A DNA stretch of 61,820 nucleotides, from contig JAZQXR010000024.1 of NCBI GenBank assembly GCA_045632975.1, forward strand, positions 1 to 61,820, read 5' to 3'. Position numbers and translations under genes: made by a program. The notes beneath the pieces were generated by a model. The model was not told the DNA's origin and did not search any database. It was given only the letters and a program-made list of their open reading frames with translations. This DNA comes from Rikenellaceae bacterium. Its GTDB lineage: Bacteria > Bacteroidota > Bacteroidia > Bacteroidales > Rikenellaceae. Numbering within the stretch: position 1 is the stretch's first letter; each line of letters opens with the position of its first letter. Shown piece after piece: positions 2,659 through 24,938 of the stretch.

Positions 2659-2660
2659 AC

Positions 2661-4622: not shown

Positions 4623-4690
4623 GGGCAGGCGCGCTGCATTTGAGAGCAAATTTAATGGCGTAAGATAGCTACTAACAACAAATTGAGGGT

Positions 4691-5455: not shown

Positions 5456-5535
5456 ATACCGAGTAGGCACACCACTTGTTCGAGAATAAATCTGACGGTG
5501 CGATTACGATTATTGCAAGGGGTGTTGGGGGCTGA

Positions 5536-5823
5536 TTATTTGTTGTGACCCGGGCCTTCGGGGAACCAGCCCTTATCCACGCGTCGCTTTTGGTGGATAA
5601 CCTCCAAGATACTCCAAAACGACGAAAAAGCCATTACGCCCAGGATTGTGGATGCGATAAAATTCTCAACCGCAATCGACAACGCACAAAACACAAGACC
5701 CGCAACAAGGAACATCCACCAACACTTTATGCCGAGATAGAACTCGGCTTTGATAACCAAGGGGTGAAAAGCTCCGATCACCAGAAAGGTCGCAAGGCCT
5801 ACTATAATTCCTATAAAGTTCAT
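5536..5823 (-). CDS. DUF4491 family small membrane protein
   Basis: 95 aa with three hydrophobic helices. The sequence MNFIGIIVGLATFLVIGAFHPLVIKAEF... is typical of Bacteroidales DUF4491. Confidence 0.7.
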   Translation of the reverse strand: MNFIGIIVGLATFLVIGAFHPLVIKAEFYLGIKCWWMFLVAGLVFCALSIAVENFIASTILGVMAFSSFWSILEVIHQKRRVDKGWFPEGPGHNK

Positions 5824-5843
5824 AAATTCACAACTATTTTTTG

Positions 5844-5851
5844 CAAAGATA
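5844..5851 (-). promoter_or_regulatory. Bacteroidetes -7 promoter box TAtcTTTG for the DUF4491 gene
   Basis: The reverse complement of caaagata is TATCTTTG. It lies ~21 nt upstream of the ATG. Confidence 0.5.
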
Positions 5852-5956
5852 GTGAAAGGCGAGTGAAGAAAAGCAAGTTTACTTGGACTTTTCTTCCGAG
5901 CCGCATCTTATCTTATGTAAAGATAGTGAAAGGCGAGTGAAGAAAAGCAAGTTTAC
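5845..5956. repeat. Perfect 38-bp direct repeat (5845-5882 and 5919-5956)
   Basis: aaagatagtgaaaggcgagtgaagaaaagcaagtttac occurs twice with a 74-bp period. I checked it base by base. Confidence 0.9.
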
Positions 5957-6009
5957 GCGGAATCACGGAAAGATTTTGCTTTGCAGGGTGGGGTTTCGAA
6001 AAAAAAGGC

Positions 6010-7687: not shown

Positions 7688-7690
7688 CGT

Positions 7691-8917: not shown

Positions 8918-8929
8918 CCGCCGAGGAGT

Positions 8930-10171: not shown

Positions 10172-10192
10172 AACAATAAAAAACGCTAACCA

Positions 10193-11662: not shown

Positions 11663-11667
11663 ACACC

Positions 11668-12498
11668 ATGGACACAACCATCAAAAATAAGCTGGCCGGT
11701 ATCAAACACGTAGCGCTCGATATGGATGGCACTATCTATATGGGCGACTCGCTCTTCCCCTATACCATCCCCTTCCTCGAGAGGCTGAAAAGCATGGGCA
11801 TCTCGTACTCGTTCCTAACCAACAACCCCTCGAAGTCGCTCGACGACTACCTGCAAAAGTTGGCCAAAATGGGCATCCACGCCACCCCCGAGGAGATGTA
11901 TACCACTACCGTAGCCACCATCGACTATATCAAGTCGCACTACCCCGAGGCTCGTCGCCTGTTCCTGCTTGGCACACCGAGCATGATTTCGCAGTTCGAG
12001 CAAGCGGGCTTTATCTCCACGGCCGACGACGCCGACGATGTGCCCGACCTGATTGTGGCGGCATTCGACCTTACGCTGGTCTACTCGCGCTTGTGCCGCG
12101 CCGCATGGTGGATTTCGCAAGGCATACCCTACATCGCAACCAACCCCGACAAAGTATGCCCGACCAACCTGCCAACGGTGCTTGTGGATTGTGGCTCTAT
12201 CTGTAAATGCCTGGAGCATGCAACGGGACGCAAACCCGACATCACCCTCGGCAAACCCGACCCCAACATGCTGCTCGGTATTCTTCAGCAAAAACAGCTG
12301 CGCCCCGACCAAATTGCAATGGTAGGTGACCGCATCTATACCGATATTGCTATGGCACAAAACGCCGGAGCCGTGGGCGTGCTTGTGCTCTCGGGCGAGA
12401 CCACCCTCGAGGTGGCCAACGCCGCGCCTAACCCGCCCGATGTCATCGCCGCCAACATCGGCGAACTCGGCGAAATGCTCGAAGCCGCCCAATCGTAG
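11668..12498 (+). CDS. HAD-IIA family hydrolase (NagD-like sugar-phosphate phosphatase)
   Basis: HVALDMDGTIY (DxD nucleophile motif), LTNNPS and a late GDRIYTDI motif. Confidence 0.8.
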   Translation: MDTTIKNKLAGIKHVALDMDGTIYMGDSLFPYTIPFLERLKSMGISYSFLTNNPSKSLDDYLQKLAKMGIHATPEEMYTTTVATIDYIKSHYPEARRLFLLGTPSMISQFEQAGFISTADDADDVPDLIVAAFDLTLVYSRLCRAAWWISQGIPYIATNPDKVCPTNLPTVLVDCGSICKCLEHATGRKPDITLGKPDPNMLLGILQQKQLRPDQIAMVGDRIYTDIAMAQNAGAVGVLVLSGETTLEVANAAPNPPDVIAANIGELGEMLEAAQS

Positions 12499-12704: not shown

Positions 12705-14930
12705 CTATTCGACACCGTCCAACAAAATAAAAGAGGCCCAATAGTACGGATTGTCCCATCCGTTTTCTTTGTATGAGCGCAATGTCTGTTTGGCACGCTC
12801 CAAGGCATCGTGCTTGGTCATGCCCTCCACAATCCAATTTCTGTAAAAATCTATCATCAGCCTACATGTTGCATTGTCATCAACCTTCCACAGTGACATG
12901 AGAATACTATTGGCGCTGGCCATTTTAAAGCCTCTTTGCAGGCCAAAGACTCCGTCACCTTCCACATCTCCACGACCTGTTTCACACGCGCTCAACACTA
13001 TCAAATCCATACCTCGAAAATCCAAAGCAGATATCTCCAATGCGGTCAAGAAACCATCATCAACACCCCGCGGCAGCTCGTCACCAAACCACTTATTATC
13101 GGCTCCTGACAATAATAAACCACATCTATTCAAAGGGTGGTCACTAAAGCGTAATCTACCGAAGGTAGCATCATCATTACCCCAGAAATAGCCATGGGTT
13201 GCAATATGCGCAAGTCGAACACCTCTGCCACTCAACGCCTTGAATGAGGCTTCAGTTCCTCTTACGCCAATATACGCCGTAGTATGGAGCTTTGTTGAGT
13301 CTATTTGTCTCAATGTCATTACGATGCTATCTGCTTCAACTCGAGTACCCTCAAGATAGTCAAAACCCGCATCTGCAGCACGAACCAGATGTAATAAAGA
13401 TTTAGACGGAGAAGGTATTGATCGTTTTCGTTGGTTCCGTTTGCTATGTGCATCTGCAACCACATCATGATAATGCATATCATAACGTAGTCCGCCATAT
13501 ATGGCCGCCTGATTGCCACTGTTAGCCTTCCGTTCAACGGCCAACTCCCGAGTGGAGGAGAGCCGATATATAGGGAATATATCCGAGATAGCGTAGTACG
13601 AGCCATCATCGTTAGGGGGAAGATACGGGAAGTGCTCTATCGCGGAAATCAGAAGTTCGCCGTCAGCCGCAAAATAGACTCGCCCCTCTTTGGTTCTGGG
13701 CATGTTATCTACAATATCATCAACCCAAATAGCTTTACTTAAATTCCACAAATCTCGAGCCCTACTCTCATCGTACGACTCCAATGATACATTTTTGAGC
13801 GCATCCTCAAGCAAGAGCCTTTTGCGACCAACCTCCACCACATTACTCAGCCTTACTAATCGTGGTGAACGCCATCCTTTTTTGAGCAATATCGCGCCGT
13901 ATTCTCCATCGTGATTTCTATAAAACTCTATTGCCAGGTCATCCGCGCTCAACTTGGACGCAACATCTTGCCACTCGATATAGAGCTGTGGCAGCTGGAA
14001 CTCCTGCCCGGACTCTTTAAGTACTCGCAAAATCTCATAATCCAGAGAGTCAATAACCGATTGGGACGCTTGCATTTCAACACCTAATTGCCGTGTCCTC
14101 ATAACATCAATAGCACGTTGATTGCCACTCATATTGACATGTTCCTCAAAACTGCGAGTCGTATTGAGCAACAGACCTTTAGACAACAGCACCGCATTGT
14201 ATGCTGCCGAAGCGATCGGGCCTTTGGAGGCACGTTCGCTTGACTTATACGCTACGCTCAATGTCCTATGAATATACTGCGCCGCCGTCGACCAATATAC
14301 GGTTCGTTTTGATTCACAGGTCGAGCAGAACTCTGTTTTTATACGATTCACATATGCGTCATACCCCAAATTGTGATAATAGTTGGATTTGCCTTGAGAT
14401 AGTCGTCCTGCATAAATTCGAGATAGATCCAGCAGTGATATCAGGCATATTTCGCTACCGTCCCCAAAATACTGCTGTTTGAGCCGCAATGAGTTACGAG
14501 CATATCTTGTAGCCCCAAATGTACGTTCTGAAATATCTTCCAGTCGGGACATCAGGTCAAGATAGAATATTTGGGATAGTGTATCTCTACCGTCAAAGCC
14601 ACCCTGTCCATGACACTCAAACAGAGAGTTACTTTTATGAATTAGATTTAACCCCTGCTCGTTGTCGCCTTTCTCAACACATATATTCGCACACCACAAA
14701 AGGCACTCTGCATATTGCGCACTATTGGCAGTGTATTGAGCCTCATACGCCTCCAGCAACTTATTAAGAAGCGAATCCGCCCTGTTACTCTTGTCTGATT
14801 TAATCTCCGCCACCAACAGCTCTATCTTGTTCAAGCCCAAGCTGTCGCTGTCATGCACCACATTTGCAGCACAAGTCAAAGGCCAAGTAAACAGTAGCAC
14901 TAATGTGATAAGTATCGTTTTTGTTGACAT
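12705..14930 (-). CDS. Exported TPR-repeat / CHAT-domain (caspase-like) protease
   Basis: Signal peptide MSTKTILITLVLLFTWPLTCAAN. The CHAT catalytic dyad context is RLAHIATHGYF (His) and LIVLSACETGRG (Cys), with the CHAT tail SLWKVDD...YYWASFILLDG. Confidence 0.9.
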   Translation of the reverse strand: MSTKTILITLVLLFTWPLTCAANVVHDSDSLGLNKIELLVAEIKSDKSNRADSLLNKLLEAYEAQYTANSAQYAECLLWCANICVEKGDNEQGLNLIHKSNSLFECHGQGGFDGRDTLSQIFYLDLMSRLEDISERTFGATRYARNSLRLKQQYFGDGSEICLISLLDLSRIYAGRLSQGKSNYYHNLGYDAYVNRIKTEFCSTCESKRTVYWSTAAQYIHRTLSVAYKSSERASKGPIASAAYNAVLLSKGLLLNTTRSFEEHVNMSGNQRAIDVMRTRQLGVEMQASQSVIDSLDYEILRVLKESGQEFQLPQLYIEWQDVASKLSADDLAIEFYRNHDGEYGAILLKKGWRSPRLVRLSNVVEVGRKRLLLEDALKNVSLESYDESRARDLWNLSKAIWVDDIVDNMPRTKEGRVYFAADGELLISAIEHFPYLPPNDDGSYYAISDIFPIYRLSSTRELAVERKANSGNQAAIYGGLRYDMHYHDVVADAHSKRNQRKRSIPSPSKSLLHLVRAADAGFDYLEGTRVEADSIVMTLRQIDSTKLHTTAYIGVRGTEASFKALSGRGVRLAHIATHGYFWGNDDATFGRLRFSDHPLNRCGLLLSGADNKWFGDELPRGVDDGFLTALEISALDFRGMDLIVLSACETGRGDVEGDGVFGLQRGFKMASANSILMSLWKVDDNATCRLMIDFYRNWIVEGMTKHDALERAKQTLRSYKENGWDNPYYWASFILLDGVE

Positions 14931-14934
14931 GTTA

Positions 14935-15468
14935 TCAGAATTTAAATCTCAATGCGACGCCCATCGCATCGTATGGATTATCATTAGGATATGTGTATCG
15001 AGCCACTCCAACATCAATTTTATCACTTATCGGAGCGATGTATGCCACCTGCGCTTCCAACGCATGCGCTTTATTGTACAATTTACCAGCCCATATACCA
15101 AATGGGATTGCAATACCAGCGGCCACAACACTCACACATGGGATATATGCCCATAATGACCAGTCATTATTTACCGCCAAACAACTTCCGACAGCGACCA
15201 CGCCTAATGTTGCAACACTACCCGCAATTAATACATTCCGCCTCTGCATCCGCAAATGCTTAATTTTGTTTTTTATATCATAATTGTAAGCGTGAGCTAA
15301 AAAAGAGGCCTCTTTGTAGTAGTCCGTCATCAAATCAAATGGTTCTACACGAACCGAAGTGACGGTATCCACGACGCTCTCGTGGTCACCTAATAGACAG
15401 GTGCCATCTTGAGCTTTTATGGTACATGATATTAAAAATAATATTATTGTCATTAATCCTTTTTTCAT
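14935..15468 (-). CDS. Exported hypothetical protein with a central hydrophobic hairpin
   Basis: N-terminal signal MKKGLMTIILFLISCTIKAQ. There are two hydrophobic segments, and the C-terminus ...VALRFKF ends in Phe as OMP beta-signals do. It lies 4 nt from the next gene. Confidence 0.65.
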   Translation of the reverse strand: MKKGLMTIILFLISCTIKAQDGTCLLGDHESVVDTVTSVRVEPFDLMTDYYKEASFLAHAYNYDIKNKIKHLRMQRRNVLIAGSVATLGVVAVGSCLAVNNDWSLWAYIPCVSVVAAGIAIPFGIWAGKLYNKAHALEAQVAYIAPISDKIDVGVARYTYPNDNPYDAMGVALRFKF

Positions 15469-15480
15469 GAGATCCGGGAG

Positions 15481-16182
15481 TTAGTCATTGAACATAGATG
15501 GCGCATGGAGAGGCTCTCCCGAGGTGAAAATACGACAGCTTAATCTCATCTCAAAATACAGAGCCTCTATATGTGTTTTTGTAATATTATAGTACGAAAT
15601 CTTTTGAGGACTTAAAGGCGGTACTATATATGATCCTAACCGAGCCTCAAACTTCAGCCTTGTAAAACGAAAGTGAAGAGCGGCATACCAACATAAGCTC
15701 ATAGGATTAAAACTGTCGGGATATATTCCATTGAAGGAGAAGTTATCCCTGTTTTTAATTTTACTGCCAAGGTAAACGTCCGACTTAATACCCGCTCCGA
15801 AATACATAGACTCAACCTTGACATCTGCCGACAGCCAATGGCTATCCACTCCAGCCGCTCCAAATAGACCTTTGTTATAGTCATAAAATTGGTATTTATA
15901 ACCTAAACTTCCATTGTATTGAAGGAAACCACCCGCTCTGTACAATTCAACACCTGCACCCAGGTCCATGTATTTACCATATAAATATTTTTTATCGAAC
16001 ACAGTATTGTTGGCAGTCCACATATTGCCATGCTCCACCCTGCTCCCTGCGGCGTATACAAATACATTGGTCAATATTGGCTTTATCTGCGTTTCCGTCA
16101 TAGGCCTAACAACCTCTTGCGCATGCAGTCTACCCACAAGCGACAACAGGAAACACAGCAGCAGTAGAGCTCTGCCTTTCAT
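15481..16182 (-). CDS. Exported hypothetical protein, beta-barrel-like
   Basis: The probable start is MKGRALLLLCFLLSLVGRLHAQ; the ORF track's longer start is at 16224. The sequence has alternating aromatic and Gly-rich beta-strand character. Confidence 0.6.
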   Translation of the reverse strand: MKGRALLLLCFLLSLVGRLHAQEVVRPMTETQIKPILTNVFVYAAGSRVEHGNMWTANNTVFDKKYLYGKYMDLGAGVELYRAGGFLQYNGSLGYKYQFYDYNKGLFGAAGVDSHWLSADVKVESMYFGAGIKSDVYLGSKIKNRDNFSFNGIYPDSFNPMSLCWYAALHFRFTRLKFEARLGSYIVPPLSPQKISYYNITKTHIEALYFEMRLSCRIFTSGEPLHAPSMFND

Positions 16183-16186
16183 GTGT

Positions 16187-16888
16187 TTATTCCTTGTAAT
16201 AAACGTATTTGATAGCTCGCACATAATACTTGTTTTTCTTAATCCATCTGTCTTTGGGGCCGTATTTCTCGTTTTGTGTTGTGGTCACAACCGCTCTATT
16301 TTCCGGATCGTAATCACTCTCCACTCCGTTGATATTGGCATAACCCTCTATATCCTCTACGCAAGTCCAATATAGTTGTTCTTTGCTTAATGGAGTACCT
16401 CCCACCCCACGCAGAGCGGCATTTAGCGCATCAACACACCCCCCTCTTATGCCAAATATCAAATCCAGCTCGTTTTTAGTAGGGAGTCTCCAACTGCCTG
16501 CCCGAGGAAACTCTTCTGCTCCATTCTTCTTGTTGCACCAATTCTGTGCAGGGTATCGCTCAATACCTAACGACATCATTGCCTGATGCATCGCCACCCC
16601 GAATTCGGGTCGACGAACTTGTGTATTGTTTAACTTATTCTTATAAACTCGTTCTCCTATCAGCCCCCAGGACTGAAGTGATTCGTCAATCGAAACGGCT
16701 ATAATATATTCAGAGGCGTTAGAACTCTTCATCACATATGCAATAATGCCCTCGTTGCCGTACTCGTCAATATAGTAATCATACAGATTGTACTCTTCCG
16801 TCGAGTCATCTGTGTACACCCCTTCGGATTCAAATGAGCAGGACACAAGCCCGACTAAAGTTACTATGTATAGTAAAAATCTTTTCAT
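16187..16888 (-). CDS. DUF1566 (Lcl C-terminal-like) domain lipoprotein
   Basis: The probable start is MKRFLLYIVTLVGLVSCSFE (lipobox Cys). The hallmark AGSWRLPTKNELDLIF is the DUF1566 W-x-LP-x-x-x-EL motif. Confidence 0.7.
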   Translation of the reverse strand: MKRFLLYIVTLVGLVSCSFESEGVYTDDSTEEYNLYDYYIDEYGNEGIIAYVMKSSNASEYIIAVSIDESLQSWGLIGERVYKNKLNNTQVRRPEFGVAMHQAMMSLGIERYPAQNWCNKKNGAEEFPRAGSWRLPTKNELDLIFGIRGGCVDALNAALRGVGGTPLSKEQLYWTCVEDIEGYANINGVESDYDPENRAVVTTTQNEKYGPKDRWIKKNKYYVRAIKYVYYKE

Positions 16889-16895
16889 AGGTCGT

Positions 16896-17759
16896 CTAAT
16901 AAAATTTAGATTCGGTCTGCTGTAACGTAGAGCAATCAAACGTCATTACAAACGGGCGATGATTGTGATTCTCTATATTGATTTTGTTTTCTTGCTCTAT
17001 ATCGAGCATTTTCGTCTTGAAATACACATCGAACGCGTCATCGGCGACACAGAATGTAATTGGCATAACTATCGTCTGTTCAGTAGGATTCAGGTACGAG
17101 AATTCATATCCCACAGAGCCATAGTATAGTCGTTCTAATGTGGTCGAGACAAACGACACCGAATAAGAGACATGCCCACTGAATAGAGTTGCCGTGTTGG
17201 CATTCCTGAACACACAATAACCATTGTATGTGAGAGGCGTAAACTCTATCATGTGAGTCTGATTCGCTGGTGTTAATTGCGCAATGGCCTGTCCCAATAT
17301 ATTGTGTACATAGTTATCACTACGTTGGTCGGAGTAGAAGTAGGCCTCATTCAGCGATCTTACTTTCATCTGGAACCATGTCTCGTAATAATCAACATCC
17401 GAATTGTACCTTACGACGTCTGCTACAAATAGAAATTTATAGCCAAGATTTTTGTCCAAATGCTTAAATCTAATCCTTTTATAATCACGAAATGGAGCGA
17501 ACAAGGACTCTTTACTCAATAGGCTGTCTTGCTGATTATAACAGTATGCCGTTATACGTACGCGACAATCAACGGGGAGTTTGTCGACACGCATCATCTC
17601 AAACGAATTTCCATCGTACTGCAAGATACTCGAAAAGAGTTCGTCTGTATTAAACTCAAAGTCGATATGACGCAGATTAGTGTCGTTCAACTCATCAAAG
17701 TCCCTTTCACAAGCGACAAGCGCACATAGGCATATAGATATGAATATTAGTCTTTTCAT
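16896..17759 (-). CDS. Hypothetical lipoprotein
   Basis: Lipoprotein signal MKRLIFISICLCALVACERD. I recognise no domain. Confidence 0.65.
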   Translation of the reverse strand: MKRLIFISICLCALVACERDFDELNDTNLRHIDFEFNTDELFSSILQYDGNSFEMMRVDKLPVDCRVRITAYCYNQQDSLLSKESLFAPFRDYKRIRFKHLDKNLGYKFLFVADVVRYNSDVDYYETWFQMKVRSLNEAYFYSDQRSDNYVHNILGQAIAQLTPANQTHMIEFTPLTYNGYCVFRNANTATLFSGHVSYSVSFVSTTLERLYYGSVGYEFSYLNPTEQTIVMPITFCVADDAFDVYFKTKMLDIEQENKINIENHNHRPFVMTFDCSTLQQTESKFY

Positions 17760-17773
17760 TTCGGCAGGCTCTT

Positions 17774-18421
17774 TTAATATGATATAAGATACGATAGCGA
17801 TATGCCGACACTATATCTCTCGTGGGTTTGGGCATACACCTGATCATAATCGAATTTTGGCGATTCGAATACATATTTTTGATTTACCATTGGCGCCATA
17901 TTGTAATTCAAATAGAGCCCCACATCCCATCTATTTAATCTTACGCCAGCAACTCCCGAGGCGGTTGCATGACTTTTACCGATATTGTTATCTGCAAGCA
18001 CTTGACCGGGAGCCTCCTTATACGAAGCTCTTACGTCAAAATGGTAGGCCATTTCTGCGCCCAAATAGACGCAGCCCGTTCGCCAACGTACGACGTTAAT
18101 ATGCCCCGACACAAATGTACCGACATATTGACCTGCCACGACCGCATTTCTATGCATGCTGATTGGATTGGTAAAGGTATATTTACACCCCACATCTACA
18201 TTAAACAGATTCCTATGTGAACCTATCCCGTAAAACAACTTTGGCCCTATATGCAAATTGTTATACGCTCTACCATCAAGGCCTACTCCCACATGTTGCA
18301 TATACACCCTACTCAAGCGCTGCCTTCGGAGCCTCACAATCTCTTTGGGTGTTTGTGCAAATATGGGTTGTGCCAATAGCACGACAAAGACAAATACAAT
18401 ATATCTGACAATTCGGTTCAT
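17774..18421 (-). CDS. Exported hypothetical protein, small outer-membrane beta-barrel-like
   Basis: Signal peptide ...LLAQPIFAQ. It is Gly/aromatic-rich and the C-terminal strand ...SLSYLISY ends in an aromatic residue. Confidence 0.6.
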   Translation of the reverse strand: MNRIVRYIVFVFVVLLAQPIFAQTPKEIVRLRRQRLSRVYMQHVGVGLDGRAYNNLHIGPKLFYGIGSHRNLFNVDVGCKYTFTNPISMHRNAVVAGQYVGTFVSGHINVVRWRTGCVYLGAEMAYHFDVRASYKEAPGQVLADNNIGKSHATASGVAGVRLNRWDVGLYLNYNMAPMVNQKYVFESPKFDYDQVYAQTHERYSVGISLSYLISY

Positions 18422-18426
18422 TATCT

Positions 18427-19716
18427 CTACAATTCAATCTTTTCCATTGTAAATGGGAATGTCATTGTTGCATACCAAGCATTCCTTTCTTGTCCATCAA
18501 TATACAAGGAGATTGCGGTTTTATAGGGCTGGCCGGTATCCTGATTAGTTTTGACAAAGCCCGGGAATTCATAATATCCGCCCGGCATTAAATTAGCTTC
18601 AGCCCTAACATTATTAACATTACGGCGAGATCCTTCCTCATCCACATATGTCCCCCTCAACGACAATATTCCCTCTAGGGTCACGCCATCCGAAAACGTC
18701 TTCTTATAATTGTCGAAAATAAGCTGTTCAGAGATTGAGATGCTACCATCTTTTCGATCAAATGACACCAATATCGGGACAACCGGCTGTGTAAGATTAC
18801 CCCATCCAACCATAATCAAAGAGTGATTACGGACATCCTCCTTGAAAGACACAAGATACGTTTTATAAGAGGCATCGGTCAGAAGCCATAAGTCCAACAA
18901 GTTCGCATAAGCCTCATCCAAAGGATACTCATCAACATGAAACACCTCGCTCATAGCATAATGTCCTGTCGGCTTGCCGAACTCATCCAAACCGATAGCA
19001 CACGACATATAATCGCCAGGAGTTAAGACGCGATAAAAATTAGTGCTTCCAGTTCGAATCTCATTATCTTCAAACCAAGGTTCCGCACTATTCTGGTTTT
19101 GCAGTTTGTTAAGAGTGGCCATTGCCGCAGAATCAATAAATGGCTCTATTCGCTCATATCTTCGAATTACATCCACAGGGGTGGTCGCCAAAACATAGCG
19201 CTCTTTGACTTGCCCTGCTACATACACCGTAACCAATGAGCGGTCGTTGTAGTTATGTTCAACATACCCTTTGTACACAACGGACCAGTTTGGGTTAATG
19301 CTCGCCACCATGTCGCTATCGAGAGTCGTAAACTCCGTGATGGCAGGTCTACCATAACGCTCTCCTATACCATTCATACCGAAAGCGATATAGGTATATG
19401 TTGTATTCGGCACCAAACCACTCACCCGGATAAGTTGCTTCCGCTGATAATGCACCTTTTGTTGCAAAGATGTTTTGTCTATATGCGACAGAAACTTTTT
19501 TATCTCATAGTTGATGTCACTCACTTCTCCCTTAACCACAAATCCATAGTAGGCATCATCATTTGTGGCATTGTGAGTGACTATCATAGTTGCATTGTAA
19601 GAGTTCACCTCGGAGACGGCAACATTAAAGACAATGTTTTCAACACACTCCTCTTTTGAGCAACCCACAACAAGAGTTGCCAGCATGAGAAATAATGCAA
19701 CAATATTCGTTCTCAT
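18427..19716 (-). CDS. Hypothetical lipoprotein with an FN3-like N-terminal module
   Basis: Lipobox ...LATLVVGCSKE. The segment VSGLVPNTTYTYIAFGMNGIGERYG...EFTT looks like an FN3 C-terminal strand pattern. Confidence 0.65.
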   Translation of the reverse strand: MRTNIVALFLMLATLVVGCSKEECVENIVFNVAVSEVNSYNATMIVTHNATNDDAYYGFVVKGEVSDINYEIKKFLSHIDKTSLQQKVHYQRKQLIRVSGLVPNTTYTYIAFGMNGIGERYGRPAITEFTTLDSDMVASINPNWSVVYKGYVEHNYNDRSLVTVYVAGQVKERYVLATTPVDVIRRYERIEPFIDSAAMATLNKLQNQNSAEPWFEDNEIRTGSTNFYRVLTPGDYMSCAIGLDEFGKPTGHYAMSEVFHVDEYPLDEAYANLLDLWLLTDASYKTYLVSFKEDVRNHSLIMVGWGNLTQPVVPILVSFDRKDGSISISEQLIFDNYKKTFSDGVTLEGILSLRGTYVDEEGSRRNVNNVRAEANLMPGGYYEFPGFVKTNQDTGQPYKTAISLYIDGQERNAWYATMTFPFTMEKIEL

Positions 19717-19727: not shown

Positions 19728-20393
19728 TTAGTTACTAATTATAACAAAACTGCAATCCTTGGGGGCACAATTAATGACCTCCAGCTCGACTATATTACGT
19801 CTATTCTCCGGCACATCGAACGAGATTTGTCGATGTGGCAATCCCGTCTTAACACTCTTGGTATCATCGTATCTCACATCCAAACCATCTCGGTTGGTTA
19901 CACGTATTTTCATCGTAACCAATCCACCCGCCTCCGCAACAACAGCCAGCTCTTGATGACCTTTTGATGAGAAGGTGTATTTAGTACTCATGCCCGCTTT
20001 CACAAAACATGTTTTAGTCAGAATTGAACCATCAGCTGTTTGCCCTCGTTTTGCATCGCGTCTCTTGAGCTCTATCTCATCCGCACAATCATAGGCATCA
20101 TTCCCATCCTTCAACAACTCATCAATAAAATCCGAAGAGAAAACCAAGTGTCCATTAAGTGAGCCTTGAATACTGTCCATGCAGTTTATGCCGGGGAAAT
20201 AAGCTATTTTAGACTCCCGTAGTTGTGCTGCCAGCCGTTCAATCTCATCTCGATTATTGTTGGAGGCAGCATCTCTCAAAGATATGCAAACATCAACGAC
20301 AGATTGAATACTGGCGTTTTTTACAATACTATTCTGCGCATAACTCAAAAGAGTCAGAATCACAAATATGGCAGCAAGGAGAATCCTTTTCAT
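19728..20393 (-). CDS. Secreted hypothetical protein
   Basis: Signal peptide MKRILLAAIFVILTLLSYAQ. The C-terminal half is beta-sandwich-like. I recognise no family. Confidence 0.6.
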   Translation of the reverse strand: MKRILLAAIFVILTLLSYAQNSIVKNASIQSVVDVCISLRDAASNNNRDEIERLAAQLRESKIAYFPGINCMDSIQGSLNGHLVFSSDFIDELLKDGNDAYDCADEIELKRRDAKRGQTADGSILTKTCFVKAGMSTKYTFSSKGHQELAVVAEAGGLVTMKIRVTNRDGLDVRYDDTKSVKTGLPHRQISFDVPENRRNIVELEVINCAPKDCSFVIISN

Positions 20394-20404: not shown

Positions 20405-21739
20405 TTAGTTCAGGTGTCCAACTCGTATAATAACCCTAAAGCCCACGGTGCTATCTTTATCATTAACACCGAAGGGGGCTTGGGAGTTGGCTGTTATTTC
20501 GGTTATTGGCGAATTGAAATTTCCACCACATATAATGTATTGAGTGTGGTCCTCCCCGTATGTCGAATTGCAAAGCTCACTAACATTGCCGCTCATGTCG
20601 TACAAATCGAGCATATTGGAACTCTTCCCTTGGCGGCCATCACTCGGATGCACGACTCCACCCGAATTCGCACCATACCAGGCAACTTCATTGGCATCAT
20701 CATCGCCCACATATAGCGTTGTTTCGTTATATTCTCCACCTCTTGCTGCATACATCCACTCCTCGACCGATGGCAGTGCTATATCCAAGTTTGTCATGTC
20801 GTTCAACTTGCCAAGGAACAAATAGATCTCGCCATACGACAATCCGGTCATTGGCAGATTGCCATCCTCGGCCTTGTACGGGATATTTTGTAATCCATAC
20901 CACAACTCCTTTGAGAATTCAAACTGGCTCATCCATAGTTCGCCTTTTCGCACCTCGCTCATATTATGGAGTAATTTATCCAAAGAGTTGAGTTGCAACT
21001 CGGTAACTTCGGGATCAAGATACAGAAGCAACGAGCTATATTTATTGTGCATGTCAGCTCTCATTGCTGCTACATCTGTCAACCCACGCTGGCGCTCTGC
21101 ATCATTACTTGCGAAACGAGGCCAAAACAACGCCACCCCAAGCAGAGTCAGAACCAATACTGCAACTAATATGACGTTAGTACGTTTTGTGACAACTTTA
21201 TTGTTATGCGTCACCCGTAATTCCGCATCTTCTGTTTGGTCAATATGTGATGTCTGGGTCGCCTCCCCCAACATCGGGACTATCCTATTTTTGACCATTA
21301 AATCTATGTCAACTCCCAATGTTTGTCCAAATCGGATCTCCGAATGTTGATACTCCCTAACAACACGTTGAATCTCTTCGGGGATGTTGGGTTTTCCCGG
21401 CTCACTCGACAGCCCTTCAAACATGCCATCCGGATTGACGGGGATGATTTTTTTGCCATATTGCACCGCGAGCATTATCTCTTGGCGCATCCAATCACCT
21501 TCATTAACACAACGAAGCAAGGCACCCTTGGATAGTATCAGCATAAATACCGAAATCTCCTCAATAGCCCGCTTAATATTTTCCCCAAAAACGCCGTCTG
21601 TCAATTCGTCATAATCAAGGAACACCTTATACCCCCTCTGCTGCAACATCAGTTGCAGAATTCTTGCGTATTGAGCGCCTCCGTCACGCCTATAACTTAT
21701 AAATACATCGTACTTCATAGTTGGGGAATTGGAATCCAT
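20405..21739 (-). CDS. TIR domain - single transmembrane helix - FGE-sulfatase (SUMF1/GldJ-like) domain protein
   Basis: The TIR region is YDVFISYRRDGG...FLDYDEL...GDWMRQEIMLAV (conserved Glu at residue 87). The TM helix is NVILVAVLVLTLLGVALFW. The FGE-sulfatase region is LPSVEEWMYAARGG...LYDMSGNVSELC...GGNF...VGFRV. Confidence 0.9.
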   Translation of the reverse strand: MDSNSPTMKYDVFISYRRDGGAQYARILQLMLQQRGYKVFLDYDELTDGVFGENIKRAIEEISVFMLILSKGALLRCVNEGDWMRQEIMLAVQYGKKIIPVNPDGMFEGLSSEPGKPNIPEEIQRVVREYQHSEIRFGQTLGVDIDLMVKNRIVPMLGEATQTSHIDQTEDAELRVTHNNKVVTKRTNVILVAVLVLTLLGVALFWPRFASNDAERQRGLTDVAAMRADMHNKYSSLLLYLDPEVTELQLNSLDKLLHNMSEVRKGELWMSQFEFSKELWYGLQNIPYKAEDGNLPMTGLSYGEIYLFLGKLNDMTNLDIALPSVEEWMYAARGGEYNETTLYVGDDDANEVAWYGANSGGVVHPSDGRQGKSSNMLDLYDMSGNVSELCNSTYGEDHTQYIICGGNFNSPITEITANSQAPFGVNDKDSTVGFRVIIRVGHLN

Positions 21740-21778: not shown

Positions 21779-21786
21779 CAAATATA
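21779..21786 (-). promoter_or_regulatory. -7 promoter box TAtaTTTG for the TIR...CHAT operon
   Basis: The reverse complement of caaatata is TATATTTG. It lies ~40 nt upstream of the TIR gene ATG. Confidence 0.45.
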
Positions 21787-21938
21787 TAAATTTTACAAGA
21801 GTATACAAAACTTTACTACCAACTTAATAAAGCACATGTTGAGCAATGTGAAGTGACCCCAAAAGTTTTTTGTCTAAACTCTTGGGGCCACTTCAACTTC
21901 GGGGCACTCCTTTAGTGTTTATGCCGCGTATTCTACTC

Positions 21939-24605
21939 CTAATTGAATACCATCTTCACCTTCATGCGGATAGTCAGGGGCAGGGGGCCGGTGTACTTCG
22001 AGTTGGAGGTCTGGAACTGAACGCCACGACCACCGCTGAACACCTCGGCCGAGTCGGTGCTCTCCATATAGTAGCTACCACCATAGAAGCCCACATTGGC
22101 CGGAACATCAACCTCCTCGCCATTCGAGAGAGCCTTGACATCCTCAACCGTGATACTCACGCTGGTCACACCCGTAACATAGGTGTCATTGACAACATAG
22201 AAGCCTTGTCCCTTCTTGGTAAAGGTTACATCCACATATCCAGGCATACCCTCGGTATCAGCCACCGTTGCGCCTGCCACCTTCTCGGTGTTGTAGGTGA
22301 AGTTATCGGCAGTAATATAGGCGACTGTTGTTGCGGGAGGTGTAACATCTCCACTATCGCCACTATCGCCACTACCGCCATCATCCTTTGCCTCCACCTC
22401 GCGGATAGCGGTGTCGAGGCGATATGTTGCGATGGGCAGATATTTGCCGCTTCTGAAATCCACGCCAATCAGGTCTACATGGTCCTTGTAAACTTGCAGA
22501 ATTGCGCCCTCCGAGCCCGAGGCATTATCACTGCGCGAGGTTCCGTTGGAGGTGATGGGTATACCACACGAGGGAACGTGCACACACCATCCCGATTGGG
22601 GTTCTCCGCCAGAAAGTTTGCGGTAGAGGTTTGCTCGGTCTTGGTACTTTTGGAGTTGCCACTCCCAGTGCGAGTGACCACTGAACCACATCGAGTTGAT
22701 GTAGCGGTCACACATATTGCGCAGACGTGCAAGTTGCAATCCCGACAGCCAGTTGCCCGAGGGGTAGATATTGTTCAGGTTGCCGGCGCGGTCGGGGAAG
22801 AACAGGTGGGTAAAGACAAAGCAGCGCTCATTGCGATACTCCTCGAGTTTGCTCTCAAGCCATGCGATATTTTCGGCGGTGTAGGCGTTACTGAAGTTCC
22901 AAATCGACATACCGAAGAAGAGGAAGTGATCGACCTTGCCATCCTCGCGCTCCACGCTCTGCTCGAACACGAGCGGTTGGTCGGTATATTTGGTCCAACG
23001 CGAGATATCGATGCCGCTGTAGGTACAGTCGTGGTTACCTGTGGTTGTGTATACGGGAATCTCCGAGAGCGATGCAATCTCCTGATAGCGTTTCAGCTGT
23101 GCATCGGTACCATCTTGCGTAATATCGCCGCAAATGCAGGTCATAGTTGCACCCGCCTCGCCAAAGAAGTTCAGCGCACGCTCGAAATCCTCCTCGGCAT
23201 TCACACCCGAGCGACCGATATGCACGTCGGACAGCACACCGAAGCTATACATCGGGGTCTCGGTGTAGTCGGGTTTGAACTCCGCCAACTGAATGGTACC
23301 CCAATGCTCGCCCACCGAGTTGTAGATACCGATGGTTTTGGCCTCGCGCGGAGCTACGTTCACCATGATAAACTCCTCGTAGCTGGCAATATCCTTGATA
23401 TTCATCTTGCAGATGGGGGCGTAATCCTCCAGAGGTTGACCGTCCGCGCCCTCGTACATGAGGGTATAGACACCTCTCGTGTTAGTGCTGATAGAGATGT
23501 TGTTATCGGCCAGAATTTCGCCACTCGCCTTGCCGTCCTCGCGAATAATGATATTTACGGTGTACGATTTGCCACTAACCCAGTTGCACACCTCCGAGCC
23601 GTTAATCTTGGCCAGCTCTTCGCCATTGAGTTGGAGCGCCAAAGCCTCCTCGCCATCTCTTTTGACATTTACTTTCAGCGTCTTGTCTGCGAGAGCATCG
23701 TCATCAGCCAGAGGCAGCGCCATTGCGTATGCGGTGTACGATGCGCCAGCTTCGAGCGTTGTGCCGTCGCCTGCAAGTGTCAGAATCTTGCTATAACTCT
23801 CTTCGCCAAACGAAACCTCGGCCGAGCCATCTGCCCACGAGAATGCGACCTCGGCAGTAGTTGCAGCAATGGGCTCGCCATCGGCACTAATCGAAATCTC
23901 TTGCAGCGACGAAGCCTCGTCCTTGGCGTTGGTCACCACAAAGCGGAATGTAGCCGGAATATGATTGAAATCCAGTGTAGTACGACCCTCTTTGTAGGTG
24001 GTCGATGCGTACATATACATGTAGTCGCCGAGCACACTCGGGTCTTGCGATACGGTCTGAACAAATGTCGACGGCATCTCCACTGTGCAGAGGTGTTGTG
24101 CTTCGGCCTCATCCTCAACAATCATTGCATCTCCCGCAACGGCATAGCAGTAGGCGGCACTCTTAAGCGCCTCGGTCGAGTAGTAGTTTACGGTTTGGAA
24201 ATCGGCGTGATGGGCGTCACCCTCGTGCGGCATCACCGCAAGGCCGCTATATGTAGCCTCCTCGACAAACTCATCCTCCTCGGGGGTGGTGAGACCCACA
24301 ATCGGCTGTGTGCCATCCGTAACGACAAACGACAACGCGCTTGTATTGTACGAATCCATCTCGACGTCATCCCACACAAGTGTCATGTCGCCGCTACCCG
24401 CGGTATCGTCCCACGCAGCGCGCGTAAGCTCCACATCACTGCTTGCGGCATTGTAGCCACAACCGCTGAAAAGATTAAGACGCACGTACTGCTCCACGGG
24501 CGGTGTATCGCCGCTCTCTTTATCGGAACTCGGTTCGCCTTTGGTGCACGCGGTTGCCATCATCGCCAGCCCCAGCACCCAAAATATACTCTTTCTAATG
24601 TTCAT
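21939..24605 (-). CDS. Surface lipoprotein with a calcineurin-like metallophosphoesterase domain
   Basis: Lipobox ...LAMMATACTKGE. Metallophosphatase motifs are GVLSDVHIG, CGDITQDG, TGNHD and SGHSHWEW. The opposite-strand 913-aa ORF has none. Confidence 0.85.
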   Translation of the reverse strand: MNIRKSIFWVLGLAMMATACTKGEPSSDKESGDTPPVEQYVRLNLFSGCGYNAASSDVELTRAAWDDTAGSGDMTLVWDDVEMDSYNTSALSFVVTDGTQPIVGLTTPEEDEFVEEATYSGLAVMPHEGDAHHADFQTVNYYSTEALKSAAYCYAVAGDAMIVEDEAEAQHLCTVEMPSTFVQTVSQDPSVLGDYMYMYASTTYKEGRTTLDFNHIPATFRFVVTNAKDEASSLQEISISADGEPIAATTAEVAFSWADGSAEVSFGEESYSKILTLAGDGTTLEAGASYTAYAMALPLADDDALADKTLKVNVKRDGEEALALQLNGEELAKINGSEVCNWVSGKSYTVNIIIREDGKASGEILADNNISISTNTRGVYTLMYEGADGQPLEDYAPICKMNIKDIASYEEFIMVNVAPREAKTIGIYNSVGEHWGTIQLAEFKPDYTETPMYSFGVLSDVHIGRSGVNAEEDFERALNFFGEAGATMTCICGDITQDGTDAQLKRYQEIASLSEIPVYTTTGNHDCTYSGIDISRWTKYTDQPLVFEQSVEREDGKVDHFLFFGMSIWNFSNAYTAENIAWLESKLEEYRNERCFVFTHLFFPDRAGNLNNIYPSGNWLSGLQLARLRNMCDRYINSMWFSGHSHWEWQLQKYQDRANLYRKLSGGEPQSGWCVHVPSCGIPITSNGTSRSDNASGSEGAILQVYKDHVDLIGVDFRSGKYLPIATYRLDTAIREVEAKDDGGSGDSGDSGDVTPPATTVAYITADNFTYNTEKVAGATVADTEGMPGYVDVTFTKKGQGFYVVNDTYVTGVTSVSITVEDVKALSNGEEVDVPANVGFYGGSYYMESTDSAEVFSGGRGVQFQTSNSKYTGPLPLTIRMKVKMVFN

Positions 24606-24938
24606 GGTTAGTTTTTTTTAAGATTAAGTTATGCGAATTTAGCGACAATTCCGCAAATTTCAAAATCCCAAGACCCATCTGTTTGACAGGGAGGACGGCC
24701 TGACGGTGATGTTGATACCCGGTCTGGGCGTGTCGTACGAGATTTTCGTGCCGCTTATCGGAGTGCTTGAGGAGCGCATTTTCGGCACAATACAATAATA
24801 AAATATCCCCTTGCTCGAATATAATATTTGGGCCGAGGAGTAGCACAAACGGGAAGTTTTATTATCTTTGAGGATGTATTGCGACTGCGAATGCCGCACA
24901 ACACCACAAAAAACACCAACCACAAAAACACCAACCCT

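What the first reader, a model, noticed from the sequence alone, without database searches (positions are those of the whole stretch)
20405..21739. TIR-TM-FGE-sulfatase architecture implies outside-in control of a TIR effector
Residues ~9-140 form a TIR domain (YDVFISYRRDG...DWMRQEIMLAV). The Glu at position 87 sits where catalytic Glu residues lie in NADase-competent TIRs. Residues ~186-206 are a single hydrophobic helix. Residues ~270-440 carry FGE-sulfatase hallmarks (EEWMYAARGG, LYDMSGNVSELC, VGFRV). With no N-terminal signal peptide, the simplest topology puts TIR in the cytoplasm and the FGE-like domain in the periplasm. In Bacteroidetes, periplasmic FGE-sulfatase-fold proteins such as GldJ, GldK and PorK are structural or binding proteins rather than enzymes. 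The domain could therefore be a ligand or partner sensor that drives TIR oligomerisation.
Basis: partly seen in the sequence, partly recalled or inferred. Interest (0 to 1): 0.7.

Follow-up and report, generated by a model that had tools for sequence, protein, structure and literature searches.

The report
Membrane-spanning TIR receptor with periplasmic lectin-fold sensor
A gut or rumen Bacteroidales bacterium encodes a single-pass membrane protein with a SARM1-like NAD-destroying TIR domain inside the cell and a non-enzymatic lectin-fold domain outside, always alongside a small exported protein and exported caspase-like proteases, which resembles an animal Toll-type receptor but is untested.

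Summary
ORF 20405..21739 (minus strand, 444 aa) has three parts:
- a TIR domain whose best solved relative is SARM1 (39% identity), with E87 aligned to catalytic E642 and invariant in 119/119 relatives;
- one TM helix (187-208);
- a C-terminal FGE-sulfatase/C-type-lectin-fold domain.

Topology is N-in/C-out. All 119 relatives have exactly one TM segment, more Lys/Arg on the TIR side, and no signal peptide.

The outer domain is not a formylglycine-generating enzyme. The catalytic Cys pair is absent (invariant Ser410 replaces the first Cys). Its closest structures are the binding or scaffold proteins TvpA, CarF and PorK.

- The gene heads a conserved operon: receptor, then a dedicated exported ~220-aa protein (g2), then 1-3 exported CHAT/TPR proteases. 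This order holds in every related locus examined.
- The same TM-plus-ectodomain module also occurs behind an nSTAND1 NTPase, next to a separate TIR gene.

FGE-fold sensors coupled to TIR, caspase or STAND modules are already predicted in the literature, but as intracellular systems. This is therefore a new variant: a transmembrane, envelope-facing version. NADase activity, the ligand and the direction of signalling are untested.

The parts
20405..21739 (-). g1: TIR-TM-lectin-fold (FGE-sulfatase-like) receptor gene, 444 aa
   Evidence: ORF. Pfam TIR_2 and FGE-sulfatase both above cutoff. The top 120 homologues listed all share the TIR_2 plus FGE-sulfatase content; 119 are 409-445 aa, one is 585 aa.
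21269..21712 (-). Cytoplasmic TIR domain (residues 10-157), SARM1-like
   Evidence: PDB phmmer: SARM1 TIR E 7e-18. Family profile: 2e-26. BLASTP: 39% identity over 119 aa. Foldseek TM about 0.8 on the SARM1 TIR.
21479..21481 (-). Codon of Glu87, the predicted catalytic glutamate
   Evidence: Aligns with SARM1 E642 in DWMRQEI against DWVHKEI. Invariant in 119/119. Codon verified.
21182..21268 (-). Disordered basic juxtamembrane linker (residues 158-186)
   Evidence: AF2 pLDDT below 50 for residues 162-186. K/R-rich N-terminal flank of the TM segment.
21116..21181 (-). Single transmembrane helix (residues 187-208)
   Evidence: Kyte-Doolittle peak 2.69. Exactly one TM segment in 119/119 relatives, all with positive-inside bias.
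21041..21115 (-). Periplasmic helical stalk continuous with the TM helix (residues 209-233)
   Evidence: AF2 models one helix spanning 187-233. It is the most variable region of the family, at 1.81 bits entropy.
20420..21022 (-). Periplasmic FGE-sulfatase / C-type-lectin-fold domain (residues 240-440), non-catalytic
   Evidence: pLDDT about 90. Foldseek: TvpA 3e-9, CarF, PorK, PvdO. No catalytic Cys pair. Conserved rather than hypervariable.
20510..20512 (-). Codon of invariant Ser410, at the position of the first catalytic Cys (C336) of human FGE
   Evidence: GGNFNS in the query against GGSYMC in human FGE, anchored on the GG motif. The human sequence was validated against PDB chains.
21779..21809 (-). 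Bacteroidetes-type promoter-like motifs: TTTG (21806..21809), 19 nt spacer, TATATTTG (21779..21786), 39 nt upstream of the ATG
   Evidence: Read directly from the sequence. The consensus TTTG / TAnnTTTG comes from established knowledge of Bacteroides promoters. Not tested functionally.
19728..20393 (-). g2: dedicated exported partner protein, 221 aa (signal peptide, helical subdomain, beta-sandwich); starts 11 bp after g1
   Evidence: 53-57% identical homologues lie immediately downstream of g1 in every related locus. The family has 567 members; the 120 listed are 215-226 aa and have no Pfam domain. AF2 pLDDT 85; the fold resembles CBM, GOLD and RetS-sensor modules.
20043..20048 (-). g2 invariant Arg116-Gly117 in the exposed loop between its two subdomains (candidate protease-processing or docking site)
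   Evidence: R116 and G117 are invariant in 60/60; RGQT is present in 112/120 homologues. Residues 116-118 are the only internal segment with pLDDT below 50. The cleavage role is inference only.
14935..19716 (-). g3-g8: six exported, lipoprotein or outer-membrane-like genes between g2 and CHAT; specific to this window
   Evidence: All have signal-peptide or lipobox N-termini. No homologues in the related loci. No Pfam, PADLOC or NCBIfam family except weak Lcl_C and FimD-tip hits for g6.
12705..14930 (-). g9: exported CHAT (caspase-like) protease, 741 aa; last gene of the operon
   Evidence: Pfam CHAT 1.5e-43. N-terminal signal peptide. His/Cys dyad motifs HIATHG (nt 13191..13208) and SACE (nt 12981..12992). 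CHAT paralogues follow g2 in all related loci.

Best explanation
g1 is a type II single-pass inner-membrane receptor. Its N-terminal SARM1-like TIR domain faces the cytoplasm. A basic linker, one TM helix and a helical stalk connect it to a periplasmic FGE-sulfatase/C-type-lectin-fold domain. That outer domain has lost the FGE catalytic cysteines and acts as a binding module.

g1 is the first gene of an acquired, low-GC operon. The conserved core of the operon is g1, a dedicated exported ~220-aa protein (g2), and one to three exported, fast-diverging CHAT/TPR caspase-like proteases.

Proposed mechanism:
1. An event in the periplasm is detected by, or relayed through, the variable CHAT/TPR proteins and g2.
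2. This changes what the lectin-fold ectodomain binds.
3. The receptors cluster through the stalk and TM helices.
4. The cytoplasmic TIR domains assemble into an active NADase.
5. NAD+ is depleted, giving growth arrest or death (an abortive, envelope-triggered response).

Shown here: domain identities, loss of the FGE active site, the conserved catalytic Glu, the topology signals, the exported status of the partners, conserved synteny, and swapping of the cytoplasmic module (TIR or nSTAND1).

Inferred: NADase activity, the outside-in direction, the role of CHAT and g2, and the biological trigger.
For: - TIR is close to SARM1, and E87 matches E642 and is invariant. The FISYRR box, W83, and the BB-loop residues G49 and F51 are also invariant.
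- There is a single TM segment with positive-inside bias in 119/119 members and no signal peptide.
- The FGE catalytic Cys pair is absent. Nearest structures are the non-enzymatic TvpA, CarF and PorK.
- All g2 and CHAT homologues examined start with signal peptides. The g1-g2-CHAT order is conserved in all distinct loci: L001/L011, L005-L010, L030, L032.
- No other operon product is cytoplasmic, so the TIR is the only cytoplasmic output.
- The same TM plus ectodomain module (46-47% identity) follows an nSTAND1 NTPase in P0267, next to a soluble TIR protein. There the FGE-fold sits in the C-terminal position that is the sensor position in STAND proteins.
- The literature predicts FGS domains as invader-binding sensors placed C-terminal to effector modules (PMC7159879; PMC8195603; PMC13581612).
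- CHAT proteins diverge much faster (29-39% identity, 1-3 copies, 700-1500 aa) than g1 (48-55%) and g2 (51-57%). That pattern is expected for the recognition component.
Against: - There is no experimental evidence for NAD+ cleavage.
- The BB-loop position matching SARM1 K597 is an invariant Glu.
- The ectodomain is well conserved (0.8-1.1 bits) and not hypervariable. This argues against direct recognition of fast-evolving invader proteins and favours a conserved ligand or partner.
- Flanking genes in the window and in related loci are mostly housekeeping or unrelated, so there is no defence-island signal.
- PADLOC and NCBIfam recognise no known defence system.
- The direction of signalling cannot be read from sequence.
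- AF2 pTM is 0.53, so the inter-domain geometry is unreliable.
- Signal peptides and topology were judged from hydropathy, charge and inspection, not from a dedicated predictor.
Confidence: 0.55

Rival explanations
1. Inside-out system. The cytoplasmic TIR domain is the sensor or switch, responding for example to NAD+/nucleotide state or to a phage protein. The signal passes outward through the TM helix to release or activate the periplasmic CHAT proteases, which are the real effectors and degrade envelope proteins.
For: Caspase-like and CHAT proteases are usually effectors in bacterial conflict systems (PMC7159879). The CHAT dyad motifs are intact. CHAT genes are always present.
Against: - TIR domains with the SARM1-type catalytic Glu are effectors or signal generators in all characterised cases.
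- In the nSTAND1 variant the FGE-fold occupies the C-terminal sensor position.
- Published architectural syntax always places effectors N-terminal to the FGS domain.
- The CHAT proteins, not the TIR, are the fast-diverging component.
Confidence: 0.15
2. Structural or housekeeping envelope complex. The lectin-fold domain is a PorK/GldK-like scaffold that anchors a periplasmic CHAT/TPR processing machine for surface or secreted proteins. The TIR serves only as an oligomerisation or adaptor domain, with no immune or suicide role.
For: The fold and sequence resemble PorK (profile E 1e-5; Foldseek; weak GldK model hit). The ectodomain is conserved, as expected for a fixed partner. The genomic context is not defence-like. 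The window operon carries extra lipoproteins and outer-membrane-like proteins.
Against: - The GldK/PorK equivalog score is 33.8 against a cutoff of 350, and there is no lipoprotein signal.
- An invariant catalytic Glu and a 39%-identical SARM1-like active-site region are hard to explain for a pure scaffold.
- The operon is a patchy, low-GC acquired island.
- The same ectodomain module also couples to a STAND NTPase next to a TIR gene, which is typical of conflict systems.
Confidence: 0.15
3. Thoeris-like signalling. The TIR makes a cyclic-ADPR-type messenger that activates the caspase-like CHAT protease, as in type IV Thoeris.
For: A TIR and a caspase-like protease co-occur in one operon. Type IV Thoeris works this way. 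There are weak ThsB and Thoeris-III model hits on the TIR.
Against: - The CHAT proteins carry signal peptides and would lie across the inner membrane from a cytoplasmic nucleotide signal.
- Thoeris model scores are far below cutoff (34.5 against 220).
- No PADLOC or NCBIfam hit for CHAT.
- Type IV Thoeris has no TM segment, ectodomain or g2.
Confidence: 0.05
4. The C-terminal domain is a genuine enzyme of the SUMF1/EgtB/PvdO family, as NCBI names relatives, and modifies a periplasmic substrate.
For: The Pfam FGE-sulfatase match is above cutoff. A source names a relative 'SUMF1/EgtB/PvdO family nonheme iron enzyme'.
Against: - The catalytic Cys pair is absent: Ser410 replaces the first Cys, and there is no Cys after GG405 in 113/119 members.
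- True FGEs score E 0.4-0.7 and align only up to the active-site segment.
- The best relatives are non-FGE proteins: TvpA, CarF, PorK, and pFGE/SUMF2 at 3e-4.
Confidence: 0.03

Closest known systems
SARM1 / TIR-1 TIR domain (animal NAD+ hydrolase)
   Same: It is the best solved relative of the TIR domain: 39% identity over 119 aa, with the same FISYRR box, the same W-x3-E catalytic motif (E87 = E642), and a fold TM of about 0.8. Both are expected to need oligomerisation for activity (from published SARM1 work).
   Different: SARM1 is a soluble ARM-SAM-TIR octamer regulated by NMN/NAD+. Here the TIR is N-terminal and tethered to the membrane, under an extracytoplasmic domain. The residue matching BB-loop K597 is Glu.
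FGS (FGE-sulfatase, C-type-lectin-fold) sensor domains of prokaryotic conflict systems (STAND-FGS, vWA-MoxR ternary systems; Kaur, Burroughs, Iyer and Aravind 2020/2021; Nature 2026 STAND survey)
   Same: The FGE-fold domain sits at the C-terminus, behind an effector or switch module (TIR, caspase, STAND), and is predicted to be a non-enzymatic binder. A sister protein here has nSTAND1 in place of the TIR.
   Different: The published systems are described as intracellular. They are often DGR-diversified and enriched in multicellular cyanobacteria and actinobacteria. This one has a TM helix that puts the domain in the periplasm, and no NTPase. No DGR template repeat was found in the window, the ectodomain is conserved, the partners are exported, and the hosts are gut and rumen Bacteroidales.
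DGR variable proteins TvpA (2Y3C) and Mtd; CarF (5AOH); PorK/GldK of the type IX secretion system
   Same: These are the closest structural and sequence relatives of the ectodomain. All are extracytoplasmic, non-FGE binding or scaffold proteins of the same fold.
   Different: None is fused to a TM helix and a TIR. No template repeat of the gene was found in the window and the C-terminal tail is not hypervariable. The PorK/GldK model score is far below cutoff.
Animal Toll-like and IL-1 receptors (ectodomain - single TM - cytoplasmic TIR)
   Same: The overall logic is the same: an extracytoplasmic binding domain, one TM helix and a cytoplasmic TIR. The co-encoded exported proteases and small exported protein recall the protease-Spaetzle-Toll cascade (analogy only).
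   Different: The orientation is inverted: type II, with the TIR N-terminal. The ectodomain is unrelated (lectin fold, not LRR or Ig). The TIR is of the enzymatic SARM1 type, not a scaffold TIR. No homology of the pathway components is implied. A survey of E. coli TIR defence systems noted that TLR-like membrane features seem absent from bacterial TIR systems (PMC11350192).
Type IV Thoeris (TIR plus caspase-like protease)
   Same: A TIR protein and a caspase-superfamily protease are co-encoded.
   Different: Type IV Thoeris is a cytoplasmic two-gene system linked by N7-cADPR. Here the protease is exported, the TIR is membrane-anchored with an ectodomain, and a third conserved exported protein is present.
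Caspase/orthocaspase-FGE-sulfatase fusions and kinase-annotated proteins with an FGE-sulfatase-like region
   Same: An FGE-fold domain is attached to a signalling or death-type domain. A cyanobacterial variant has a pair of TM helices between the metacaspase domain and the FGE-sulfatase domain (PMC3501461). The FGE-like region also matches cyanophage genes annotated as kinases.
   Different: The signalling domain differs (peptidase or kinase, not TIR). No conserved g2/CHAT operon has been described for them.

Membership tests
TIR domain, NADase-competent (SARM1-like) class | TIR fold and Pfam TIR_2 match above the gathering score | tested here: met
   PF13676: 41.8 bits against a cutoff of 28. 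Foldseek TM about 0.8 to the SARM1 TIR.
TIR domain, NADase-competent (SARM1-like) class | Catalytic glutamate in the alphaC region (SARM1 E642) | tested here: met
   E87 aligns with E642 and is invariant in 119/119. The position in 3D was not measured explicitly.
TIR domain, NADase-competent (SARM1-like) class | NAD+ hydrolase or cyclase activity dependent on oligomerisation | not testable with these tools
   Needs enzyme assays.
Formylglycine-generating enzyme (SUMF1/FGE proper) | FGE-sulfatase fold / Pfam PF03781 | tested here: met
   48.7 bits against a cutoff of 23.3, but only profile positions 85-254 are matched.
Formylglycine-generating enzyme (SUMF1/FGE proper) | Catalytic Cys pair (human C336/C341, motif GGSYMCHRSYC) | tested here: not met
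   The query has GGNFNSPITEI. Ser410 is invariant at the first Cys position, and 113/119 members have no Cys after the GG motif.
Formylglycine-generating enzyme (SUMF1/FGE proper) | Closest sequence relatives are true FGEs | tested here: not met
   True FGEs (6muj, 2q17, 5nxl, 6s07) score E 0.4-0.7. CarF scores 4e-15, TvpA 2e-11 and PorK 1e-5.
Formylglycine-generating enzyme (SUMF1/FGE proper) | Ca2+/Cu-binding residues | not tested
DGR (diversity-generating retroelement) variable protein | C-type-lectin/FGE fold similar to TvpA or Mtd | tested here: met
   TvpA 2y3c: Foldseek 3e-9, TM 0.53 on the target; profile E 2e-11.
DGR (diversity-generating retroelement) variable protein | Template repeat matching the 3' variable region, with a reverse transcriptase nearby | tested here: not met
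   No significant repeat of the gene anywhere in the 61.8-kb window (best E 0.22). The window was not scanned for a reverse transcriptase, and the rest of the genome is unseen.
DGR (diversity-generating retroelement) variable protein | Hypervariable C-terminal ligand-binding region among relatives | tested here: not met
   Tail 395-444 has entropy 1.12 bits and the core 0.81, both lower than the stalk at 1.81.
PorK/GldK (T9SS ring lipoprotein) | Match to the equivalog model TIGR03525 above cutoff, and a lipoprotein signal | tested here: not met
   33.8 bits against a cutoff of 350, and only residues 316-401 match. No N-terminal signal peptide or lipobox.
Thoeris (types I-IV and newer) | ThsB-type TIR plus a cytoplasmic effector that binds the TIR-made nucleotide | tested here: not met
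   ThsB and ThcB4 models score far below cutoff. All other operon products are exported. No PADLOC or NCBIfam hit for CHAT.
FGS-sensor conflict systems (Kaur et al.) | FGS domain C-terminal to an effector or switch domain (TIR, caspase, STAND) | tested here: met
   TIR is N-terminal and FGE-fold C-terminal. The nSTAND1 variant P0267 has the same order. The syntax is described in PMC7159879.
FGS-sensor conflict systems (Kaur et al.) | Regulatory NTPase (STAND, MoxR-vWA or GTPase) in the same protein or operon; intracellular location | tested here: not met
   No NTPase domain was found in g1 or in any of the other operon products of the window. The domain is predicted to be periplasmic.
Toll-like / IL-1 receptor architecture | Extracytoplasmic binding domain - single TM - cytoplasmic TIR | tested here: met
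   Predicted from hydropathy and charge bias in 119/119 members. The orientation is inverted relative to TLRs. This is an analogy, not homology of the ectodomain.

The most novel reading that the evidence does not exclude
This is a bacterial counterpart of the Toll pathway, working across the inner membrane.

1. The variable exported TPR-CHAT proteases act as periplasmic pattern sensors.
2. When triggered, they cleave the dedicated exported protein g2 at its invariant, exposed Arg116-Gly117 loop.
3. Processed g2, a Spaetzle-like pro-ligand, binds the lectin-fold ectodomain.
4. The receptor clusters, and its SARM1-type cytoplasmic TIR destroys NAD+.

If so, this would be an envelope-surveillance immune or suicide system. 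It could sense phage entry, contact-dependent attack or envelope damage before the cytoplasm is invaded. Its TIR domain is among the closest bacterial relatives of SARM1.
Probability: 0.15. Interest if true: 0.85.

Novelty: new variant of a known kind. Interest (0 to 1): 0.6.

Why it matters
The bacterial TIR immune systems covered by the literature read here are cytoplasmic, and FGE-fold sensor domains have been discussed as intracellular invader binders. A TIR NADase wired through one TM helix to a periplasmic binding domain, with dedicated exported proteases, would let a bacterium trigger NAD+ depletion from events in the envelope.

It would also be the first prokaryotic system found here with the receptor logic of Toll/IL-1 receptors, and it uses a TIR that is 39% identical to SARM1. 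The system is abundant: 567 g2 clusters were found, and the organism-labelled loci are rumen and gut Prevotellaceae and related Bacteroidales. That makes it relevant to phage-host and interbacterial dynamics in those microbiomes, and possibly to the bacterial ancestry of the SARM1 TIR.

All of this is testable with simple NADase, topology-fusion and protease assays.

Tried and rejected
- **DGR target.** Low-stringency blastn of the gene against the rest of the window found no template repeat (best E 0.22). The C-terminal tail is not hypervariable.
- **True FGE enzyme.** Rejected because the Cys pair is absent and the PDB profile ranking puts true FGEs last.
- **hhalign of the family profile against the human FGE catalytic segment.** It aligned only 13 terminal columns. 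I replaced it with an anchored pairwise alignment and direct Cys counting.
- **PorK/GldK membership.** Rejected: 33.8 bits against a cutoff of 350.
- **Known defence systems.** PADLOC and NCBIfam give only generic TIR hits for g1 and nothing for g2-g9.
- **Type IV Thoeris.** Rejected on topology.
- **Phage or plasmid origin.** Only domain-level FGE hits, never the full architecture.
- **The look-up of encoding contigs for the window's own protein.** Not on record.
- **Sigma-70 promoter and terminator scan.** Not above shuffled background, and not appropriate for Bacteroidetes.
- **tRNA scan for an integration site.** None found in the window.
- **g2 fold search.** Returned only generic beta-sandwich binding modules, with no specific function.
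- **Literature searches.** Six searches found no description of a TIR-TM-FGE/CHAT periplasmic system.
Full report
**1. Observation**

The window has a 444-aa ORF on the minus strand at 20405..21739. Pfam finds TIR_2 at residues 12-104 (E 1.8e-10) and FGE-sulfatase at residues 289-437 (E 1e-12). Both are above the curated cutoffs. There is one strongly hydrophobic segment, at 187-208.

**2. The TIR domain**

A phmmer search of the PDB puts the SARM1 TIR first (E about 7e-18). Query DWMRQEI aligns to SARM1 DWVHKEI, so E87 corresponds to the catalytic E642. A 67-sequence family profile raises this to 2e-26 for TIR-1/SARM1. BLASTP gives 39% identity over 119 residues. The AlphaFold2 model (mean pLDDT 78.7) superposes on SARM1 TIR crystal structures with TM about 0.8, normalised to the target.

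In 119 homologues of 409-445 aa, E87 is invariant. In the 67-sequence alignment Y16-R17-R18, W83, G49 and F51 are also invariant, and the rest of the FISYRR box is at least 90% conserved. One difference is that the residue matching SARM1 BB-loop K597 is an invariant Glu.

**3. Topology**

All 119 family members have exactly one TM segment. All 119 have more Lys/Arg in the 15 residues before it than after it (mean 4.9 against 2.0; net charge +3.1 against -1.2). None has signal-peptide-like hydrophobicity at the N-terminus. By the positive-inside rule the TIR is cytoplasmic and the C-terminal domain periplasmic. The model shows a disordered basic linker (162-186), then a single long helix (187-233) that forms the TM segment plus a periplasmic stalk, and then a confident (pLDDT about 90) globular domain.

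**4. The C-terminal domain is not an FGE**

I validated the human SUMF1 catalytic segment against deposited FGE chains. Anchoring on the shared GG motif, human GGSYMC(336)HRSYC(341) corresponds to query GGNFNS(410)PITEI. Ser410 is invariant, and 113 of 119 members have no cysteine at all after the GG motif.

Against the family profile, true FGEs score E 0.4-0.7 and align only up to the active-site segment. CarF (5aoh) scores 4e-15, the DGR variable protein TvpA scores 2e-11, PorK scores 1e-5, and the inactive paralogue pFGE/SUMF2 scores 3e-4. Foldseek agrees: TvpA 3e-9, then CarF, PorK, PvdO and ToxD. The GldK/PorK equivalog model scores 33.8 against a cutoff of 350.

The domain is therefore a binding-type member of the C-type-lectin/FGE fold. 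I looked for DGR features and did not find them. There is no template repeat in the window, and the region equivalent to a DGR variable region is conserved (1.12 bits against 1.81 bits in the stalk). C390 and C404 are both at least 99% conserved (C404 invariant, C390 in 118/119). They may form a periplasmic disulfide; this was not tested.

**5. Genomic context**

The gene is the first of a tightly packed minus-strand string running from 21739 down to 12705. It has a Bacteroidetes-type TTTG/TAnnTTTG promoter-like motif upstream, 11-bp intergenic gaps after the first two genes, and 42-44% GC between flanks of 50-59% GC. The flanks are housekeeping genes: a glpABC-like set, MFS and HAD on one side, and DUF5020 and a permease on the other. 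It therefore looks like an acquired island.

Every other product of the string has a signal-peptide or lipoprotein-type N-terminus, including the last gene, a 741-aa CHAT protease (Pfam 1.5e-43) with intact HIATHG and SACE dyad motifs.

In every related locus that could be examined, the receptor gene is followed immediately by a g2 homologue and then by one to three CHAT or TPR-CHAT proteins. These are Prevotellaceae and Bacteroidaceae MAGs from rumen and gut (L001/L011, L005-L010) plus metagenome contigs (L030, L032). The g2 homologues are about 215-225 aa and 51-57% identical. The CHAT proteins are 700-1500 aa and 29-39% identical. All of them have signal peptides. The window's g3-g8 are not conserved elsewhere.

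The g2 family has 567 clusters. The 120 listed are 215-226 aa with no Pfam domain, and their contig sizes mirror those of the receptor family. The g2 model (pLDDT 85) has a helical subdomain plus a beta-sandwich that resembles carbohydrate- and ligand-binding modules and the RetS periplasmic sensor domain. The only disordered internal loop of g2 carries an invariant R116-G117-Q-T motif.

**6. Modularity**

An exhaustive search with residues 209-444 finds a huge superfamily: 37,538 representative clusters at E up to 1e-3. Among the closest single-copy relatives is P0267. It has an nSTAND1 NTPase, a strongly basic stretch, one TM helix, and then the same stalk-plus-ectodomain at 46-47% identity. 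It is encoded directly after a soluble 460-aa TIR protein.

So the same extracytoplasmic module feeds different cytoplasmic oligomerising or effector modules, and it sits in the C-terminal position that is the sensor position in STAND proteins.

Other Bacteroidales TIR proteins fetched in passing are fused to different lectin-like C-terminal domains. One Alistipes protein has a TIR, a TM helix and a canonical FGE-sulfatase-like domain. Several others have a TIR, a coiled coil and a DUF1566-like domain, some of them without a TM helix.

**7. Mechanism**

The best-supported reading is an outside-in receptor. Periplasmic binding at the lectin-fold ectodomain, probably involving g2 and the fast-diverging CHAT/TPR proteins, clusters the receptor. 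This activates a SARM1-like TIR NADase, which is the only cytoplasmic output of the operon. This step is inferred.

The evidence against an anti-phage role is real. The ectodomain is conserved. The loci are not in recognisable defence islands. No curated defence model matches.

The rivals are inside-out signalling to periplasmic CHAT effectors, a PorK-like structural role, Thoeris-IV-like TIR-to-caspase signalling (topologically implausible here), and a true enzyme (rejected).

**8. Comparison with the literature**

FGE/FGS lectin-fold domains are already predicted as non-enzymatic invader sensors coupled to TIR, caspase and STAND modules. They are described as intracellular and are often DGR-diversified (PMC7159879; PMC8195603; PMC10907252; PMC13581612). 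Caspase-FGE fusions, one with a pair of TM helices between the domains, are known in cyanobacteria (PMC3501461). Type IV Thoeris couples a TIR to a cytoplasmic caspase-like protease. A survey of E. coli TIR systems remarks that TLR-like membrane features seem absent from bacterial TIR systems (PMC11350192). Six literature searches found no description of this TIR-TM-lectin-fold receptor with exported g2 and CHAT partners.

**9. Verdict**

The finding is a new variant of a known kind. The main additions are the conserved exported partners and the swappable cytoplasmic module.

Noticed in passing
window 21939..24605 (-); L032 16689..17501: The gene just upstream of the operon encodes an 888-aa lipoprotein-like protein with a fimbrillin-like (Mfa_like_1) region and a calcineurin-like phosphoesterase (Metallophos) domain. 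It has weak hits to cyclic-nucleotide phosphodiesterase models. An exported Metallophos protein also lies right after the CHAT gene in the related locus L032. The link is possible but unproven: the window gene has a different GC content and is separated from the operon by a hairpin and a promoter.
   Followed up: partly
window 16187..16939 (-) (g6); L019, L020, L024, L013, L015: Window g6 is a lipoprotein with a weak Lcl_C/DUF1566 match. It is homologous to the C-terminal domain of Alistipes and Bacteroidaceae TIR proteins with the layout TIR - coiled coil - DUF1566-like domain. Some of these have a TM-like segment and some do not. TIR fusions to lectin-like domains appear to be a broader theme in Bacteroidales.
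   Followed up: partly
L029 120..3699: A variant system on a JGI metagenome contig: a soluble 460-aa protein with a C-terminal TIR, followed 4 bp later by an nSTAND1 NTPase - TM - lectin-fold protein (P0267). Downstream is a truncated exported gene that is not a g2 homologue.
   Followed up: partly
window 21269..21712 (-): This bacterial TIR family is unusually close to animal SARM1/TIR-1 (39% identity; family profile E 2e-26). A 2020 TIR survey reported finding no bacterial SARM1 homologues (PMC7075850), while a 2026 preprint places SARM1 inside a bacterial clade (PMC13142454). The family may be informative about the bacterial origin of the SARM1 TIR.
   Followed up: partly
window 21870..24611 (+): A 913-aa ORF lies antisense to, and almost coextensive with, the 888-aa Metallophos lipoprotein gene. 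It is most likely a spurious shadow ORF in GC-rich coding sequence.
   Followed up: no
window 1..6000: A second low-GC stretch (35-45% GC) holds an unannotated 328-aa ORF, a GNAT acetyltransferase and a LEM-3-like GIY-YIG nuclease gene. It could be a remnant of another acquired element.
   Followed up: no
L009 10001..11293: In one Prevotellaceae MAG the receptor homologue has an intact ORF only for residues about 226-439, although tblastn matches residues 9-439. It may be a frameshifted or degenerate copy, and it still sits upstream of g2 and CHAT genes.
   Followed up: no
window 17774..18421 (-) (g4), 15481..16224 (-) (g7), 14935..15468 (-) (g8): g4 and g7 look like small outer-membrane beta-barrel proteins (signal peptide, alternating aromatic-rich strands). 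g8 has a signal peptide plus two hydrophobic helices. None matches any Pfam, PADLOC or NCBIfam family.
   Followed up: no
window 6065..12498 (+): An anaerobic glycerol-3-phosphate dehydrogenase-like gene set (DAO/FAD, FAD_binding_2 and CCG/4Fe-4S subunits), followed by an MFS transporter and a HAD phosphatase. These form the housekeeping left flank of the island.
   Followed up: no
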